Shown here in pieces: positions 3,001 to 27,900 of a DNA stretch of 64,000 bases. The position numbers were made by a program. Origin of the DNA: Octopus vulgaris (lineage: Eukaryota); contig OX597824.1 of NCBI GenBank assembly GCA_951406725.2, positions 30,318,001 to 30,382,000 on the forward strand, given 5' to 3'. How positions within the stretch are numbered: position 1 is the first letter of the stretch; each line of letters starts with the position of its first letter.

Positions 3001-6000
3001 TATTCTGGTGGACCTCCACCCCTGCCCGCCGGTCCCCAACCTTTAGCCTTTTGATGTTTAAAATCTAATTTTATAGGTACTTCTTTTAAAATTCCTATTT
3101 TGATTTTCACTCATTAACTTGTGTTGGTTCAACTAAGTAAAACATTAGAGAAAGAAATCAAGCTATTTCATTTAATAAATACATCTCAGCCAAAATTTTT
3201 ACATGAATCCTCCAAAATCTTATATAGGCTCCCATTTGAGAACCATTGCTCTAGATGGTCACATAACCTGACTAGAAACAGTGTCTTAAAAAAGAATGAG
3301 GATACTGAATGTGATCTGAAAAGCAAAACAGAAAGGATGGCCATGCCAGGATGTTTTTGACCATAAAGCTCCTCAATCAAATTCAACTGGGGCTACATCA
3401 TCCTCCTCCTCCTCATCATCATCATTTAACGTCCGCTTTCCATGCTAGCATGGGTTGGACGATTTGACTGAGGACTGGTGAACCAGATGGCTGCACCAAG
3501 CTCCAATCTGATCTGGCAGAGTTTCTACAGGTGGATGCCCTTCCTAACGCCAACCACTCTGAGAGTGTAGTAGGTGCTTTTACGTGCCACTGGCACGAGA
3601 CCCAGTCAGGTGGTACTGGCAACAGCCACATTCAAATGGTGTTTTTTATGTGCCACCTGCACAGGAGCCAGTCCAGCGGCACTGGCAATGACCTCGCTCG
3701 AATGTTTTTTCATGTGCCACCGGCACAAGTGCTATAAAGGCAACGTTAGTAATGTTCACACTCAAATTGTGTTTTCTACGTGTCACCAGCATGGAAACCA
3801 ATCAGCTGCTCTGGTAACGATCACACTTGGATGCTGCTCTTAACGTTCTACTAGCACAGATGCCAGTCATCAAATTTGACTTCGATTTCACTTGCCTCAA
3901 CAGGTCTTCACAAGCATAGCTTAGTGTCCAATGAAGGAAAGGTATGCATAAGTGGGCTGGTTATATCCCTGGCATAGGCCACAGGTTATGGTCTCACTTG
4001 GCTTGCCAGGTCTTCTCAAGCACAGGATTTTTCAAAAGGTCTCAGTCACTAGCCATTGCCTCGATGAGGCCTAATGTTCGAAGGTCGTGCTTCACCACCT
4101 CATCCCAGGTCTTCCTGGGTCTACCTTTTCCACAGGTTCCCTCAACTGCTAGGGTGTGGCACTTTTTCTCACAGCTTTCCTCATCCATTCTCACCACATG
4201 ACCATACCAGCACAGTAATCTCTCTTGCACACCACATCTGATGCTTCTTAGGTCCAACTTTTCTCTCAAGGTACTTACACTCTATCGAGTATGCACACTG
4301 ACGTTACACATCCATCGGAGTATACTGGCTTCATTTCTTGCAAGCTTATGCATAACCTCAGCAGTCACAGCCCATGTTTTGCTGCCATGTAGCATGGCTG
4401 TTCGTATACATGTGTCATACAGTCTACCTTTTACTCTGAGTGAGAGGCCTTTTGTCACCAGCAGTGGTAAGAGCTCTCTGAATTTTGCCCAGGCTATTCT
4501 TATTCTAGCAGCTACACTTTCAGTGCACCCTTCCCTGCTACTGACTTGGTCACCTAGGTAACAGAAGCTATCAACTACTTCTAGTTTTTCTCCCTGGAAT
4601 GTGGTGGAAGTTGTTCTCTGCACATTTTCAGTGTTTATTGCTCCTGAGCATCTGCCACATACAAAAACTTTCTTCCCAATTAGCCTTCCTTTGATATTGT
4701 TGCACCTCTTATGTGTCCATAGCTTACACTGGGTATATCTTATAGAGTCTATACCTAAGCCTTTTCTACAGATCGAGCAGGGCCATCTACAAGAAGGGAT
4801 TTGTGGTTTGTCTGCCTTCCTTCTTATTAGGACTTTGGTTTTAGCTAGGTTGACTCTAAGGCCCTTCGATTCTAATTCTTGCTTCCAAACCTGAAACTTC
4901 ACCTCTAGTTCTGACTCTGCAATTAGAGCAAGGTCGTCAGCAGAGAGGAGCTCTGTAATTAATTGTATCTAAAGCATCACCTTTACCTTTGTAGCATATG
5001 TCTATGGTGCTGCTACACCAGTCATTGGGTATGACTCCTTCGTGTATCACCTGGTTAACTATACGGGTGACTAGGCTATAACCGACACTACCACATATTT
5101 TGAGCATCTCTGCAGAGATTCCTAATGGGCCAGGGGCTTTCCCTGTCTTCATACTCTTAATTGATTTATCTACCAAGGTACTGTCAACTCAGATAGCTGG
5201 TCCCTCTGTGGGGTCGACATTTGGCAGACTCTCTTTCTCACATTCATTTTCTTTATTGAGCAACCTTTCATAGTGGCCTCTCCAAACCTCTCTCTGGCAT
5301 TAGGAAGGACACCCAGCTATAGAAACCATACCAAATCAGACTCCAGTTTGATTTGGTGCAGTTCCTCCACTTGTCAGCTCACATCAAGCTATCCAATCCA
5401 TGCCAGCATGGAAAACAGATGTTAAATGATGATGATGATGATGATGATGATGTATATACATATATAGATATAGATATATGACAGAGAAATTTTGATAACT
5501 ACGTTTATCTGGAAAGAGATAAAATATAACATTAATCTACCTGTTCTTGTTTAGCAAGGTCTATGTCAATTTCTCTAGGTTCTATGGTCTCTTGAAGTTC
5601 GCTGATCATTTTGGGTGGAGCAGATGTTGAAGCAACTTGAAAATTTTTACATATCTTACAAACAGAGCTCTACAAAATTGAACAACACAGTCATAACCAG
5701 TTTGTGTGTATGTTTAAGTGATATATTCAACACAGATGAACAGTAGTTTACAGCTACTTGTGAAAAATGAGACAAGTGAAAATTTATAGAAGAGATAAAG
5801 TTAATACAGTTGATGAGCTGGTAACAACCAGGTGAAATTTAGCTGAGTTCCTTTTGAAATCATTCTAAGAAAAGAGATCTTGGTGGTTTAAATATTCCAC
5901 AGTAAGGTTAAATATATGGTTATGCTTGTAAATATATTTACAACTTATCTGCAGGCACTCTGTCTCAGGATTATTGCTAACAAATACAGACACACACACG

Positions 6001-24947: not shown

Positions 24948-27900
24948 GAGCAAGACACATCTTCTCTCTCTCTTTGACAACATACCTCTCTCTCAGTCAA
25001 ACACACTAAAAAAAGATGCAAGAAAAAGTAAACAAATAAAATTTATACAATCACTCTCTCTCTCTCTCTCTCAATCAATCACACACACACACACTCAAAA
25101 AAGATGAGGAAAAATAAATAAAATGTATACTGTCACTCTCTCTTTCTCTCTCCCTCACACACACACACACAACAACAACAACAACAACAACACACACTTT
25201 AAATTTATTATTCAATTTTCAGTAAGGTAAAATCTTAAATTATTGACACATTATCAATTAGCCTAATAGCATAGCCTGGATAAAACATGGATTACATGGA
25301 AAAATGCTAGTAAGAGAAATAATATTCTTAAGATTATAAACAAGAAAAGTACAGAACAAGTTATTACACTTGGAAAAGTTCAGGATAAGTTATTACAGCT
25401 GGTAAAGTACAGAACAAAAAAACTTTTACTTAAAATATTGCAGCTAAGGATAAAATTTCAAATAAAATATTTATATTTCTCCCAAGTTATTTATATATAA
25501 GTACAGAAGGTCTTCAAAGACTATTTACATTATTTACATTCAACGGATATTTGTCCTCATCTTGTTTGTTGTTAACACGTTTCGGCTGATATACCCTCCA
25601 GCCTTCTTCAGGTGTCTTGAGGAAATTTTAAACCTGGGTTCTCATTCCTAAGGTATTTTTTCGATGTTATTATTATCATTTTTTGATGTTATTATTTTCG
25701 ATCGTTATTGAGCTTGATCATTTCTTCGTGGTGTGTATCACGATCGCTACTTATATTCTTTGCACGATGTTTTAGGCACTGAGCAATACCTCTCTTTACA
25801 ATGTATGGCTGGTGGAAATTGAAGTTGAGGTATCGTCCAGAAATGGTCAGCCTGCAGTATACAGATGCCCTGAATCCATACTTGGTGCATGTTATTAATA
25901 CATCCAGGAATGCCAGCTCATTGTCTTTTTCCTTTTCCACTGTGAACTGTATGGATGGCTTTATTGAGTTCACCTGATCTAACTGCACTTGGGCATCTTC
26001 CTGGTGGGGCCAGAGTATAAAGGTGTCGTCAACATATCGTAGTCATAGTGTTGGTTTTAGTGGTGTTGATCCTAAAGCCAAATTCTCAAAGTATTCCATG
26101 TATGTATTGGCTATTACCGGTGATAATGGTGAACCCATAGCTAAACCCTCCTCCATACTGAAGTAGGTAGTTTCTACACAGAAGGTCAACATTTCCATCA
26201 AGTTTCTTATTGGTATACTAGTGCATTCTTTTAGATGGGTGACTGTCACTAGTTTTTCTAGTGCTTCACCAGTTGAAACTTCGGTGAACAGGCTTATCAC
26301 ATCTAGACTCACCATCTGGTTGGGTTCAATGGGAGTATCCTTGATCAATTCTGTGAAGTGGGTGGAATACTTCACGTACGATTCTTCATCAACAACAGAA
26401 GCAATGTACAAGCCAACAATGAAGCTGCTACCTGCAAGAAATAGCAGACAACCCTCCCTCTAAACACACTCTACTATTATAAAAGAACCCTTCCCTACTC
26501 CATGGTAACGTGATCCCAGATAACATTTTCACTGAAAAACAAAATAAAAAGGCAGTTGGAATGTATTTGGTCACTGGTCTTTTTAATCACAGCTGACCAG
26601 TCTCTAAACAAGAAGAACTATAGCAGTAGCAACAACTGTAACAACCACATAAATAATATATATTCTAATAACTTAATAACAGTCTTTACAGAAACAATAT
26701 ATCAAATTATAAGCCTACTTTTTCCCCTTTTGTAAAGATCTCTTGAGGTTTTCTAGGCTCTATGTTAAATGCAGATGTTGAAATAGGTTCCTCATGTATG
26801 AAGCCAAAAAGTGGTTCCTCTGGGTGGTCATTCCAATCCTAAAATGAAATACATACACACACACATATATAGATATGTATATATTTTTACTCGTCTCATT
26901 CATTAAACTGCAGCCATGCTGGGACACAACCTTGAAGAATTTTAGTTGAAGGGATCAACCCCAGTACTTTTTTAAAGCCTGATATTCTTTTTAGTCTGTC
27001 TCTTTTGCCAAACCACTATGTTACTGGAACACAAAGACTGATTGACAAATGCTGGTGGGGGATACAGACACAAGGAAACACACATACACAATTGGTTTCT
27101 TTCAATTTCTTATTTCTTTATTGCCCACAAGGGGCTAAACACAGGGGACAAACAAGGACAGACAAATGGATTAAGTCGATTATATCGACCCCAGTGCGCA
27201 ACTAGAACTTATTTAATCGACCCTGAAAGGATGAAAGGCAAAGTTGACCTCAGCAGAATTTGAACTCAGAACGTAGCTGTAGACGAAATAACGCTAAGCA
27301 TTTCGCCCGGCGTGCTAACGTTTCTGCCAGCTCGCCGCCTTATTTCTTTCAATTTCTGTCAACCAAATCCAATCGCAAGGTTTTGGTTTGCGCAGGGATA
27401 TAGTAGAAGACACTTGCCAAAGGTATCATGAACACACGTACTCATATGCATGCACATGTCTGCATATGTGTGTATCTGTGTGCACAAGTACTTGTGTGTA
27501 TGTACAAGTATTTGTCTGTATGTACTGTGTATATATATGTGTACGGTGTGTAATAAGTATATCCATAAGTGAGTGTGTGCTTATGTATTCCAGAATGTGT
27601 AACTACATGGTAGGCATATACATGTATATGAGGTGGTATCAAAAAGTTCCTAGACTTTTTGATAACACCTGTAGTGGTGTCAGCAGAATGTAGCACATGA
27701 TTACATGCACAGTGGGAGCTAGCAGTAGCCTTCATGAGGCAGTGTGCCAAGTGACATCACTGTGTTTGCTTCACAAGTTGTGAAATTTGTGTTTTTGTGA
27801 TGATGTGTATGCTATGGTCTGCGATTTTGTCATGGACAGAAACAAAGAGCCAATGTGAAATCTTACGTTAAACTTTGGAAGTCTGTTACAAAGACATTGA

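What the first reader, a model, noticed from the sequence alone, without database searches (positions are those of the whole stretch)
5541..26838. Array of at least 8 tandemly duplicated symmetric exons encoding a CxxC module in a BTB-BACK gene
Seen: eight homologous minus-strand exons (26719-26838, 22175-22318, 19594-19755, 17226-17375, 15436-15585, 13520-13681, 11534-11695, 5541-5669). All have lengths divisible by 3, phase 0/0, no stops and GT-AG ends. The consensus is roughly DTVxYVxxGxxxERCKICKNxKxxSTSAxPxEIxxxQETxxPxEIDIDLAKQEQ. Every length difference between copies preserves frame even though amino acids diverge heavily, which suggests selection on coding frame. Known: BTB-BACK proteins are usually Cullin-3 substrate adaptors followed by a Kelch or PHR domain. 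Inference: a lineage-specific, expandable repeat tail occupies that position. It could be constitutive (length-variable) or a combinatorial cassette array. I do not recognise the module as a named domain, and the ORF track misses most of these exons.
Basis: partly seen in the sequence, partly recalled or inferred. Interest (0 to 1): 0.88.

Follow-up and report, generated by a model that had tools for sequence, protein, structure and literature searches.

The report
Octopus BTB-BACK gene, duplicated-exon repeat tail
The window holds most of an already annotated octopus gene whose tail was built by repeatedly duplicating one small exon, giving a chain of about a dozen short cysteine-pair units that match no described protein domain and were found only in octopuses.

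Summary
All 8 minus-strand segments are open, have lengths divisible by 3 and are bounded by AG and GT. R2-R8 are clearly homologous. R1 is only marginally so (2.9 bits; 10 of 1000 shuffles score higher). CxxC is present in 6 of 8 units.

The gene is public. Octopus vulgaris 'actin-binding IPP' (1586 aa) matches the window at 100% in exon 4 and in R5 and R7, and carries R2-R7 as consecutive blocks. Orthologues exist in O. sinensis and O. bimaculoides.

The architecture is BTB-BACK, then about 690 aa with no detected fold, then an array of 11-13 units that continues left of the window, then a Cys-rich end. R8 is a 5'-truncated copy found in no gene model.

The unit has no Pfam family. A profile of it found only the octopus cluster among 1.84 billion representative proteins. 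AlphaFold gives a short beta-hairpin carrying the CxxC, followed by a disordered linker.

The outer units are one-to-one orthologues between species. The middle units vary in number.

Most likely reading: a serially included, length-variable, multivalent tail on a Cul3-type adaptor. Cassette splicing and zinc binding remain untested. Interest is moderate.

The parts
39426..39771 (-). Coding exon 1, from the ATG at 39771: N-terminal extension plus the first part of the BTB domain. It ends in phase 1 at a GTAAGA donor.
   Evidence: residues 1-115 of P0009; Pfam BTB E 5.4e-16.
36884..37370 (-). Coding exon 2: the end of BTB plus the BACK domain (enters in phase 1, leaves in phase 2).
   Evidence: 100% identical to P0009 and P0010; best solved relatives KBTBD2, KEAP1, KLHL11, KLHL3.
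36208..36298 (-). Coding exon 3 (91 nt), a short linker.
   Evidence: reproduces P0009 residues 278-308.
30957..32939 (-). Coding exon 4 (1983 nt, 661 codons, phase 0/0), with no detected domain. Its donor at 30957 joins to the repeat exons.
   Evidence: no Pfam family above cut-off; 100% to P0009 309-969; single-sequence AlphaFold, all 661 residues below pLDDT 50.
26719..26838 (-). R1, a 40-codon phase-0 exon and a very divergent or marginal member of the array with no CxxC. It is absent from the O. vulgaris model but present in the O. sinensis X4 and O. bimaculoides models.
   Evidence: 95% to Os01, 82% to Ob01; 2.9 bits.
22175..22318 (-). R2, 48 codons, with CNEC.
   Evidence: its translation is the block P0009 970-1017; identity 1.0 to Os02, 0.85 to Ob02.
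19594..19755 (-). R3, 54 codons. Both cysteines are replaced (Y..Y), and the O. bimaculoides orthologue also lacks them.
   Evidence: (block P0009 1018-1071).
17226..17375 (-). R4, 50 codons, with CKIC.
   Evidence: (block P0009 1072-1121).
15436..15585 (-). R5, 50 codons, with CKVC.
   Evidence: (100% to P0009 1122-1171).
13520..13681 (-). R6, 54 codons, with CKIC. Its orthologue is present in O. bimaculoides but missing from the O. sinensis X4 model.
   Evidence: (block P0009 1172-1225).
11534..11695 (-). R7, 54 codons, with CKIC.
   Evidence: 100% to P0009 1226-1279; fold.
5541..5669 (-). R8, a 5'-truncated copy of a unit (43 codons open, CKIC kept). It is probably a pseudo-exon or an unannotated short exon using a new AG.
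   Evidence: (87.5% to the next annotated unit).
5658..5976 (-). The upstream flank of R8, homologous (84%) to intron 14299-14614, which lies about 620 nt upstream of R6. This shows a ~640-nt deletion that removed the acceptor and the start of the R8 exon. It also shows that the young units were duplicated together with about 1 kb of intron.
3..3116 (-). A second copy of the R8 upstream intron (3-145 and 2575-3116 match 5781-6497), split by a LINE insertion. This implies that the next unit of the array lies just left of the window.
   Evidence: the public protein continues with five more units that have no 100% match in the window.

Best explanation
The window carries the first two thirds of one Octopus vulgaris gene on the minus strand. 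It starts with a KLHL-type BTB-BACK module. About 690 residues with no recognisable fold follow. Then comes a chain of ~50-residue units, each encoded by one phase-0/phase-0 exon. The units arose by tandem duplication of an exon with its flanking intron. The outer units are old and correspond one-to-one between octopus species. The middle units are the most alike, and this is where the array still gains and loses copies; R8 is a broken by-product of that turnover. Each unit is a short beta-hairpin carrying a C-x-x-C-K turn, followed by a disordered acidic and Ser/Thr/Pro-rich linker ending in DLAKQEQ. The signature is D-x3-Y-x9-C-x2-C-K-x2-K-x2-S-x4-P-x13-E-x3-DLAKQEQ. Shown: the exons, their splice signals, their homology, their frame-preserving evolution, their presence in series in three public gene models, and the absence of the unit elsewhere. 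Inferred: the units are mostly spliced in constitutively. The BTB dimer would then present two long, flexible, multivalent tails, and these would serve as the partner- or substrate-binding part of a Cullin-3-type adaptor in place of a Kelch propeller.
For: Open frames, 3n lengths and AG/GT in 8 of 8 segments. BTB and BACK upstream. Closest solved relatives of the BACK exon are KBTBD2, KEAP1, KLHL11 and KLHL3 (E 7.5e-8 to 6e-7). Exon 4, R5 and R7 map at 100% to the public O. vulgaris protein P0009. Exon 2 is 100% identical to it. The translations of R2-R7 are the consecutive blocks 970-1279 of P0009. The public models carry 11, 11 and 13 serial units. Homology between units covers the exon plus ~45 nt upstream and ~75 nt downstream, and is at background beyond that. 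For the young units it reaches ~1 kb of intron. Exon indels are multiples of 3 in 4 of 4 cases, against mixed lengths in the flanks. Eight positional orthologue pairs between O. vulgaris and O. bimaculoides are 318/389 = 82% identical, and 6 of the 8 pairs keep the same unit length. For comparison, exon 4 is 87% identical and BTB-BACK 97%. Each outer unit is closer to its positional orthologue than to any paralogue, while the three middle units are ambiguous. AlphaFold on R7 with its paralogues gives strands at 2-7, 10-15 and 20-23 with pLDDT 72-78, and residues 28-48 and 51-54 below 50. No Pfam family matched any of the 5 units tested or the tails of the three full proteins. The profile of R2-R8 hit 1 of 1,835,955,588 representatives, the octopus cluster, in 10 stretches.
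Against: No transcript or protein data were seen here, so serial inclusion rests on automatic gene models. Pairwise dN/dS among R2-R8 is high: median 0.75 over 21 pairs, range 0.24-1.33, with 3 pairs above 1. Constraint on the residues is therefore weak. R3 has lacked both cysteines since before the species split, so the CxxC is not needed in every unit. The models disagree on R1 and on the R6 orthologue, which may mean exon skipping. Cullin-3 binding, dimerisation and any partner of the tail are untested. The single-unit model is only moderately confident (mean pLDDT 58). The Octopus-only range depends on which cephalopod proteomes the libraries hold, and I could not check that.
Confidence: 0.6

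Rival explanations
1. Cassette array: the symmetric exons are skipped in varying combinations, so the gene makes a family of tails of different length and composition, and this variation is what the array is for.
For: All units are phase 0/0 with 3n lengths, so any subset keeps the frame. R1 is intact in the window with AG/GT, yet it is absent from the O. vulgaris model and present in the O. sinensis X4 and O. bimaculoides models. The orthologue of R6 is missing from O. sinensis isoform X4 although O. vulgaris and the more distant O. bimaculoides both have it. The O. sinensis record is named 'isoform X4', and its 90% cluster holds 14 member sequences.
Against: Every model strings 11-13 units in series. 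The acceptors have long pyrimidine tracts and the donors are GTAAGT/GTAGGT-like, with no obviously weak sites except the R5 donor GTGGGT. The differences between models could be annotation or genomic differences. No transcripts were examined, and the isoform list could not be read.
Confidence: 0.2
2. Zinc (or other metal or redox) zipper: each unit supplies half of a Cys4 site. Pairs of units, within one tail or between the two tails of the BTB dimer, would then clamp a metal ion as the Rad50 hook does, turning a floppy tail into an ordered or switchable rod.
For: There is a single CxxC per unit, at the tip of a predicted hairpin. It is conserved in at least 80% of 21 units from two species. 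The arrays hold 9, 8 and 10 CxxC in the three models. The weak top Foldseek matches are zinc-finger and zinc-ribbon hairpins such as Kaiso and NrdR. Intermolecular Zn(Cys)4 sites built from one CXXC per chain are an established principle for Rad50 (PMC5093744 and PMC9569753; titles and abstract starts in the listing only).
Against: Foldseek gave 0 matches at E <= 0.001, with the best at E 0.49. One unit has lost both cysteines and has been kept for a long time. The number of CxxC is odd in O. vulgaris. No metal-binding test of any kind was possible.
Confidence: 0.12
3. Tolerated filler: the array is a nearly neutral by-product of unequal crossing-over in a disordered tail. It is kept in frame only because frame-breaking copies would destroy the conserved Cys-rich C-terminal end downstream.
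For: Median dN/dS among paralogues is 0.75. The units evolve slightly faster than the undetected-fold exon 4 (82% against 87% identity). Copy number varies. A broken copy, R8, is tolerated in an intron. The first 55 residues after the array are 49/55 identical between species.
Against: A clear position-specific signature survives in 21 units of two species (D, Y, C..CK, K, S, P, E, DLAKQEQ at >= 80%). The outer units are retained one-to-one with the same lengths across species.
Confidence: 0.15
4. The unit is a fragment of a mobile element, or a decayed C2H2 zinc finger, rather than a module of its own.
For: The introns are full of LINE-like copies. The weak Foldseek top hits are C2H2 hairpins with 33% identity over 27 columns.
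Against: The eight copies are the only ones in 64 kb. All lie on one strand and in one frame series. None overlaps the LINE copies at 365-2590, 4282-4968, 6862-8011 or 11754-13151. The profile finds no other protein in 1.84 billion representatives. There is no zf-C2H2 or other Pfam hit, and no histidine pair in the unit. A genome-wide search of the octopus assembly itself was not possible with these tools.
Confidence: 0.03

Closest known systems
BTB-BACK-Kelch (KLHL/KBTBD) Cullin-3 substrate adaptors
   Same: BTB followed by BACK at the N-terminus (Pfam E 7e-20 and 4e-16 on the full protein). The best solved relatives of the BACK exon are KBTBD2, KEAP1, KLHL11, KLHL3, KLHL22 and gigaxonin. The public name 'actin-binding IPP' reflects this similarity.
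   Different: No Kelch repeat matches at E <= 0.1 in any of the three full proteins. In its place are ~690 residues without a detected fold, then 11-13 orphan units, then a Cys-rich end. Cullin-3 binding was not tested.
BTB-BACK-PHR (BBP) proteins
   Same: The same N-terminal architecture, with a different C-terminal recognition part. The family is defined in PMC1257465 (passages read).
   Different: No PHR match. The tail here is repetitive and mostly disordered.
Protein repeats grown by tandem duplication of symmetric exons, including mutually exclusive exon clusters derived from tandem exon duplication (PMC8373072, listing and abstract start only)
   Same: Adjacent homologous exons on one strand with the same phase, conserved splice signals and residual homology in the flanking intron.
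   Different: In the gene models the units are used one after another, not one at a time. No evidence of mutually exclusive use.
Rad50 zinc hook (one CXXC per chain, with Zn shared between two chains; PMC5093744, listing and abstract start only)
   Same: A lone CxxC per unit at a turn, too few ligands for a metal site of its own.
   Different: No flanking coiled coil, no similarity shown, and metal binding untested. This is an analogy only.
C2H2 zinc-finger hairpin
   Same: A hairpin with a C-x2-C turn followed by a basic or aromatic residue. Kaiso fingers are the top, non-significant Foldseek hits (E 0.49).
   Different: No His pair, no helix, and no Pfam zf-C2H2 match.

Membership tests
BTB-BACK-Kelch (KLHL/KBTBD) family | BTB/POZ domain | tested here: met
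   PF00651 E 5.4e-16 on exon 1 alone and 7.4e-20 on P0009.
BTB-BACK-Kelch (KLHL/KBTBD) family | BACK domain directly after BTB | tested here: met
   PF07707 E 1e-17 on exon 2. PDB relatives are KBTBD2, KEAP1 and KLHL11.
BTB-BACK-Kelch (KLHL/KBTBD) family | C-terminal Kelch beta-propeller (four to seven kelch motifs; PMC1257465, passage read) | tested here: not met
   No Kelch family at E <= 0.1 in P0009, P0010 or P0011.
BTB-BACK-Kelch (KLHL/KBTBD) family | Binding of Cullin-3 through BTB and the start of BACK | not testable with these tools
   Needs a binding assay. The contact residues were not examined.
BTB-BACK-PHR family | C-terminal PHR domain | tested here: not met
   No PHR match.
Exon-duplication repeat array | Adjacent homologous exons on the same strand with the same phase | tested here: met
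   This holds for 7 of 8 units clearly; R1 is marginal.
Exon-duplication repeat array | Homology extends into the flanking intron (a DNA-level duplication, not convergence) | tested here: met
Mutually exclusive exon cluster | Only one exon of the cluster is included per transcript | tested here: not met
   Three public models include 11-13 units in series. Transcripts themselves were not seen.
C2H2 zinc finger | C-x2-4-C followed by a His pair (pattern recalled, not from a call) | tested here: not met
   No conserved His in 21 aligned units. No Pfam hit.
Zinc ribbon / self-contained zinc knuckle domain | Four metal ligands within one unit (recalled) | tested here: not met
   Only two Cys per unit, and none in R1 and R3.
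Intermolecular Zn hook (Rad50-like principle) | Zn bound by CxxC pairs from two chains or units | not testable with these tools
Needs metal analysis.

The most novel reading that the evidence does not exclude
The array is a metal- or redox-switchable zipper. Each unit's hairpin CxxC is half of a Cys4 site, so neighbouring units, or the two tails of the BTB dimer, clamp zinc in register. The number and choice of units (set by exon skipping and by copy-number change between species) would tune the length of a rod that positions partners on a Cullin-3 ligase. This would be a new octopus-specific domain type made of half-sites.
Probability: 0.1. Interest if true: 0.7.

Novelty: new variant of a known kind. 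Interest (0 to 1): 0.35.

Why it matters
The finding is a clean and still active example of how a new repeat domain grows by exon duplication. The outer units are old and fixed, the core is young and variable, and one broken copy was caught in an intron. The array sits on a well-understood ubiquitin-ligase adaptor chassis in an animal group known for lineage-specific gene innovation. The unit has no described family, and in the libraries searched it occurs only in Octopus, so it is a candidate for a new domain entry. If the tail really replaces the Kelch propeller as the recognition part, it would be an unusual, multivalent way of building a Cullin-3 adaptor. The exons themselves are already in public gene models, so the finding adds interpretation rather than new sequence.

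Tried and rejected
- **Pfam on units:** Pfam on 5 of the 8 units (R2, R3, R4, R6, R7) and on exon 4 gave nothing above cut-off. The best was SMAP at E 0.042 for R3.
- **ESM Atlas:** A look-alike search with four units of P0009 gave a best score of 0.76 ('cell surface glycoprotein 1-like'), below the level that shuffled proteins reach a third of the time. 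No lead.
- **Foldseek:** The unit model against the PDB gave 0 of 468 listed matches at E <= 0.001.
- **AlphaFold on exon 4:** Run without an alignment, all 661 residues were below pLDDT 50. This is uninformative beyond 'no confident fold'.
- **Complex prediction:** Nothing was folded, so there is no verdict.
- **The listing of cluster members:** Intended to read the O. sinensis isoforms, but it is switched off. The isoform composition therefore stayed unchecked.
- **Other scans:** Tandem Repeats Finder sees only an unrelated 144-bp duplication at 10706-10965, because the units are kilobases apart. No tRNA genes were found.
- **Mobile-element origin:** Considered and rejected. See the rival explanations.
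- **Literature:**
  - The terms 'LOC118765495'/'A0A0L8GHP2' found 0 papers.
  - 'actin-binding IPP' with 'octopus' found 0 papers.
  - 'octopus' with 'exon duplication' found 7 papers, none about this gene judging by title and abstract start.
  - 'octopus'/'BTB'/'BACK domain'/'lineage-specific' found 35 papers, of which 10 were listed, none about this gene.
- **Not used or closed:**
  - The collection genome contigs (bacteria and archaea only) was not used.
  - No cephalopod genome could be searched, so the presence of the unit in squids, cuttlefish, nautilus or other octopods is unchecked at the DNA level.
- **Spliced model:** I did not build or search a joined spliced model of my own. Exons were searched one at a time.

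Full report
**Observation.** All have lengths divisible by three. Each is preceded by a pyrimidine-rich tract ending in AG and followed by GT. A tblastn of the eight translations against the whole 64-kb window finds these eight copies and nothing else above noise.

The window has no N and about 30-48% G+C.

**Which gene it is.**
- On the same strand upstream lie four coding exons:
  - Exon 1 (39426-39771) starts at an ATG and encodes the start of a BTB domain.
  - Exon 2 (36884-37370) encodes the rest of BTB and a BACK domain.
  - Exon 3 (36208-36298) is a 91-nt linker exon.
  - Exon 4 (30957-32939) has 661 codons and no detected domain.
- I searched exon by exon, and built and searched no joined spliced model of my own. 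Full-length comparisons below use public protein records that the search returned.
- The BACK exon alone retrieved 3 proteins at E <= 0.001 among 582 candidates:
  - Octopus vulgaris 'actin-binding IPP' (P0009, 1586 aa, 100% identical).
  - O. sinensis 'uncharacterized protein LOC118765495 isoform X4' (P0010, 1610 aa, 100%).
  - O. bimaculoides 'BTB domain-containing protein' A0A0L8GHP2 (P0011, 1714 aa, 98%).
- Mapping P0009 back to the window gives 100% identity over exon 4 and over R5 and R7. The translations of R2-R7 are the consecutive blocks 970-1279 of P0009.
- A substitution pattern in exon 4 (window = P0009, different from P0010) indicates that the window is O. vulgaris.
- The exons are therefore already in public gene models. 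What has not been described is the unit itself.

**How large the array is.**
- Cutting the three public proteins at unit boundaries gives 11 units in P0009, 11 in P0010 and 13 in P0011. Each array is followed by a conserved Cys-rich C-terminal segment.
- P0009 uses R2-R7 and then five more units that have no 100% match in the window. The array therefore continues to the left of the window.
- Two window segments (3-145 and 2575-3116, separated by a LINE insertion) are copies of the intron just upstream of R8 (5781-6497). This suggests that the next unit lies shortly beyond coordinate 1.
- Counting R1 and R8, O. vulgaris has 13 genomic copies, 8 of them in the window.

**Individual units.**
- R1 is intact in the window. 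It is 95% identical to the first unit of P0010 and 82% to that of P0011, but it is not in the O. vulgaris model.
- Against an HMM of R2-R8, R1 scores only 2.9 bits, and 10 of 1000 shuffles of R1 score higher. It is at best a very old or marginal member.
- R3 has tyrosines where the two cysteines should be. Its O. bimaculoides orthologue also lacks them.
- R8 lacks the first ~40 nt of a unit.
  - Its upstream flank (5658-5976) matches intron sequence about 620 nt upstream of R6 at 84% (14299-14614). A ~640-nt deletion therefore removed the acceptor and the start of the exon.
  - The missing piece is nowhere else in the window.
  - The aligned remnant shows gaps of 9 and 4 nt, and a stop lies directly upstream of the open part.
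  - No public protein contains R8; its best match is 87.5% to the next annotated unit.
  - I read it as a pseudo-exon, or possibly an unannotated short exon using a new AG.

**How the array arose and evolves.**
- Between units, DNA similarity covers the exon plus about 45 nt upstream and about 75 nt downstream, then drops to background. For the youngest units it reaches about 1 kb of intron.
- The rest of the introns is filled with retroelement copies.
- The 4 of 4 indels inside the exons of R2-R7 are multiples of three. Flank gaps have lengths 1-8.
- Unit-by-unit comparison shows that R1-R6 and the last three units of O. vulgaris each have a positional orthologue in O. bimaculoides that is closer (0.71-0.86) than any paralogue. 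R7 and the next two units are as close to each other (0.76-0.83) as to any O. bimaculoides unit.
- O. bimaculoides has one unit with no counterpart in the other two models. O. sinensis X4 lacks the orthologue of R6.
- So the array is older than the split of these species, its edges are fixed, and its middle still turns over.
- Identity between O. vulgaris and O. bimaculoides, all:
  - BTB-BACK: 270/278 (97%).
  - Exon 4: 568/656 (87%).
  - Eight positional orthologue units: 318/389 (82%).
  - The first 55 residues after the array: 49/55.
- Pairwise Nei-Gojobori dN/dS among R2-R8 has a median of 0.75 over 21 pairs (range 0.24-1.33, 3 pairs above 1). These are short sequences, so the estimates are noisy, but the constraint on residues is clearly weak overall.
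- A position-specific signature nevertheless survives in at least 80% of 21 units from two species: D-x3-Y-x9-C-x2-C-K-x2-K-x2-S-x4-P-x13-E-x3-D-L-A-K-Q-E-Q.

**What the unit is.**
- No Pfam family matches the 5 units tested or the tails of the three full proteins. Those proteins show only BTB and BACK, with no Kelch, PHR or zinc-finger family.
- A profile of R2-R8 against 1,835,955,588 representative proteins found one protein at E <= 0.001, the octopus cluster representative, in 10 stretches.
- Word-index searches with the array region found only the same three clusters among proteins of 885-2818 aa, and nothing among proteins of 30-884 aa.
- The Atlas look-alike search gave no usable lead (0.76).
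- AlphaFold on R7 with its six paralogues gives a small three-stranded hairpin region (strands 2-7, 10-15, 20-23; pLDDT 72-78) that carries the CxxC. Residues 28-48 and 51-54 are below 50 (mean pLDDT 58).
- Foldseek against the PDB gives no match at E <= 0.001. The weak top hits are zinc-finger and zinc-ribbon hairpins.
- The array of P0009 (551 aa) is rich in K, E, Q, S, D and T, with net charge -17. It holds nine CxxC and nine S/T-P sites.
- Exon 4 gave no confident fold: single-sequence AlphaFold put all residues below pLDDT 50. This is weak evidence.

**Mechanism.**
- Shown:
  - A BTB-BACK N-terminus whose closest solved relatives are KLHL/KBTBD Cullin-3 adaptors.
  - No propeller.
  - A long tail ending in an array of hairpin-plus-linker units.
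- From established knowledge of the family (PMC1257465, passages read): BTB-BACK-Kelch proteins dimerise through BTB, bind Cullin-3, and use the C-terminal domain to hold substrates.
- Inferred: here the dimer presents two long flexible tails with about a dozen repeated short binding elements each. This multivalent platform takes the place of the propeller.
- I put the structural and evolutionary description at about 0.85, and the functional inference at about 0.4.
- Rivals:
  - Combinatorial exon skipping as the point of the array (0.2). It is hinted at by the model differences for R1 and R6 and by the 'isoform X4' label with 14 cluster members.
  - Pairing of CxxC half-sites around zinc as in the Rad50 hook (0.12; principle from PMC5093744 and PMC9569753, listing and abstract starts only).
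  - Nearly neutral filler kept in frame to preserve the conserved C-terminal end (0.15).
  - Mobile-element or decayed zinc-finger origin (0.03).

**Novelty.**
- The gene and its exons are public, under an automatic name. No paper mentioning the locus or the name was found. No paper on octopus exon duplication or octopus BTB genes concerned it, judging from the listings.
- Growth of repeats by tandem duplication of symmetric exons is a known process, and BTB-BACK proteins with alternative C-terminal parts are a known class.
- The new elements are the orphan unit, its apparent restriction to Octopus, and its position on this chassis. I therefore rate it a new variant of a known kind, of moderate interest.

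**Left open.**
- Any search of cephalopod genomes, since none is available here.
- Whether the protein libraries hold squid, cuttlefish or nautilus proteomes, on which the 'Octopus only' statement depends.

Noticed in passing
window 365-2590 (-); copies at 4282-4968 (-), 6862-8011 (+), 11754-13151 (+), 33717-34639: A LINE-like retroelement with a 741-codon open frame (RVT_1 E 5.7e-30, plus a PHD-like finger at E 3.9e-4, below the cut-off). Several degraded copies, 72-82% alike, sit in both orientations inside the introns of the array. The long open frame suggests a young, possibly active copy.
   Followed up: partly
window 25692-26459 (-): A reverse-transcriptase fragment of a different element (RVT_1 E 1.3e-4, below the cut-off) lies in the intron just 3' of R1.
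   Followed up: partly
window 57537-57950; partial copies at 25522-25683: A 414-nt self-complementary (foldback) repeat, 86% complementary to itself, with 88-90% copies of one arm in the R1-R2 intron. It looks like a MITE or foldback element.
   Followed up: no
window 10706-10965: A 144-bp unit repeated 1.8 times (81% matches) in the R7-R8 intron.
   Followed up: no
window 39754-39771 (-): The protein starts M-G-x-x-x-S. From memory this fits the N-myristoylation consensus. This is recalled, not tested.
   Followed up: no
outside the window (P0009 1521-1586, P0010 1510-1610, P0011 1614-1714): After the array comes a conserved Cys-rich end (CxxC, then CCCC, then CC), 49/55 identical between species. 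The O. vulgaris model ends differently from the other two after '..CCAHI', which suggests an alternative or mis-annotated last exon.
   Followed up: partly
about 55-65 nt downstream of the donors of R3-R8 (e.g. window 11470-11480, 13455-13465): A short intronic element of the form (a/g)gttatca(a/t)g is kept downstream of the donor in R3-R8, and more loosely in R2. It may be a splicing signal or only residual homology.
   Followed up: no
window 62423-62713 (-): A 96-codon open frame upstream of the gene with no Pfam match. Whether it is an exon of a neighbouring gene is unknown.
   Followed up: no
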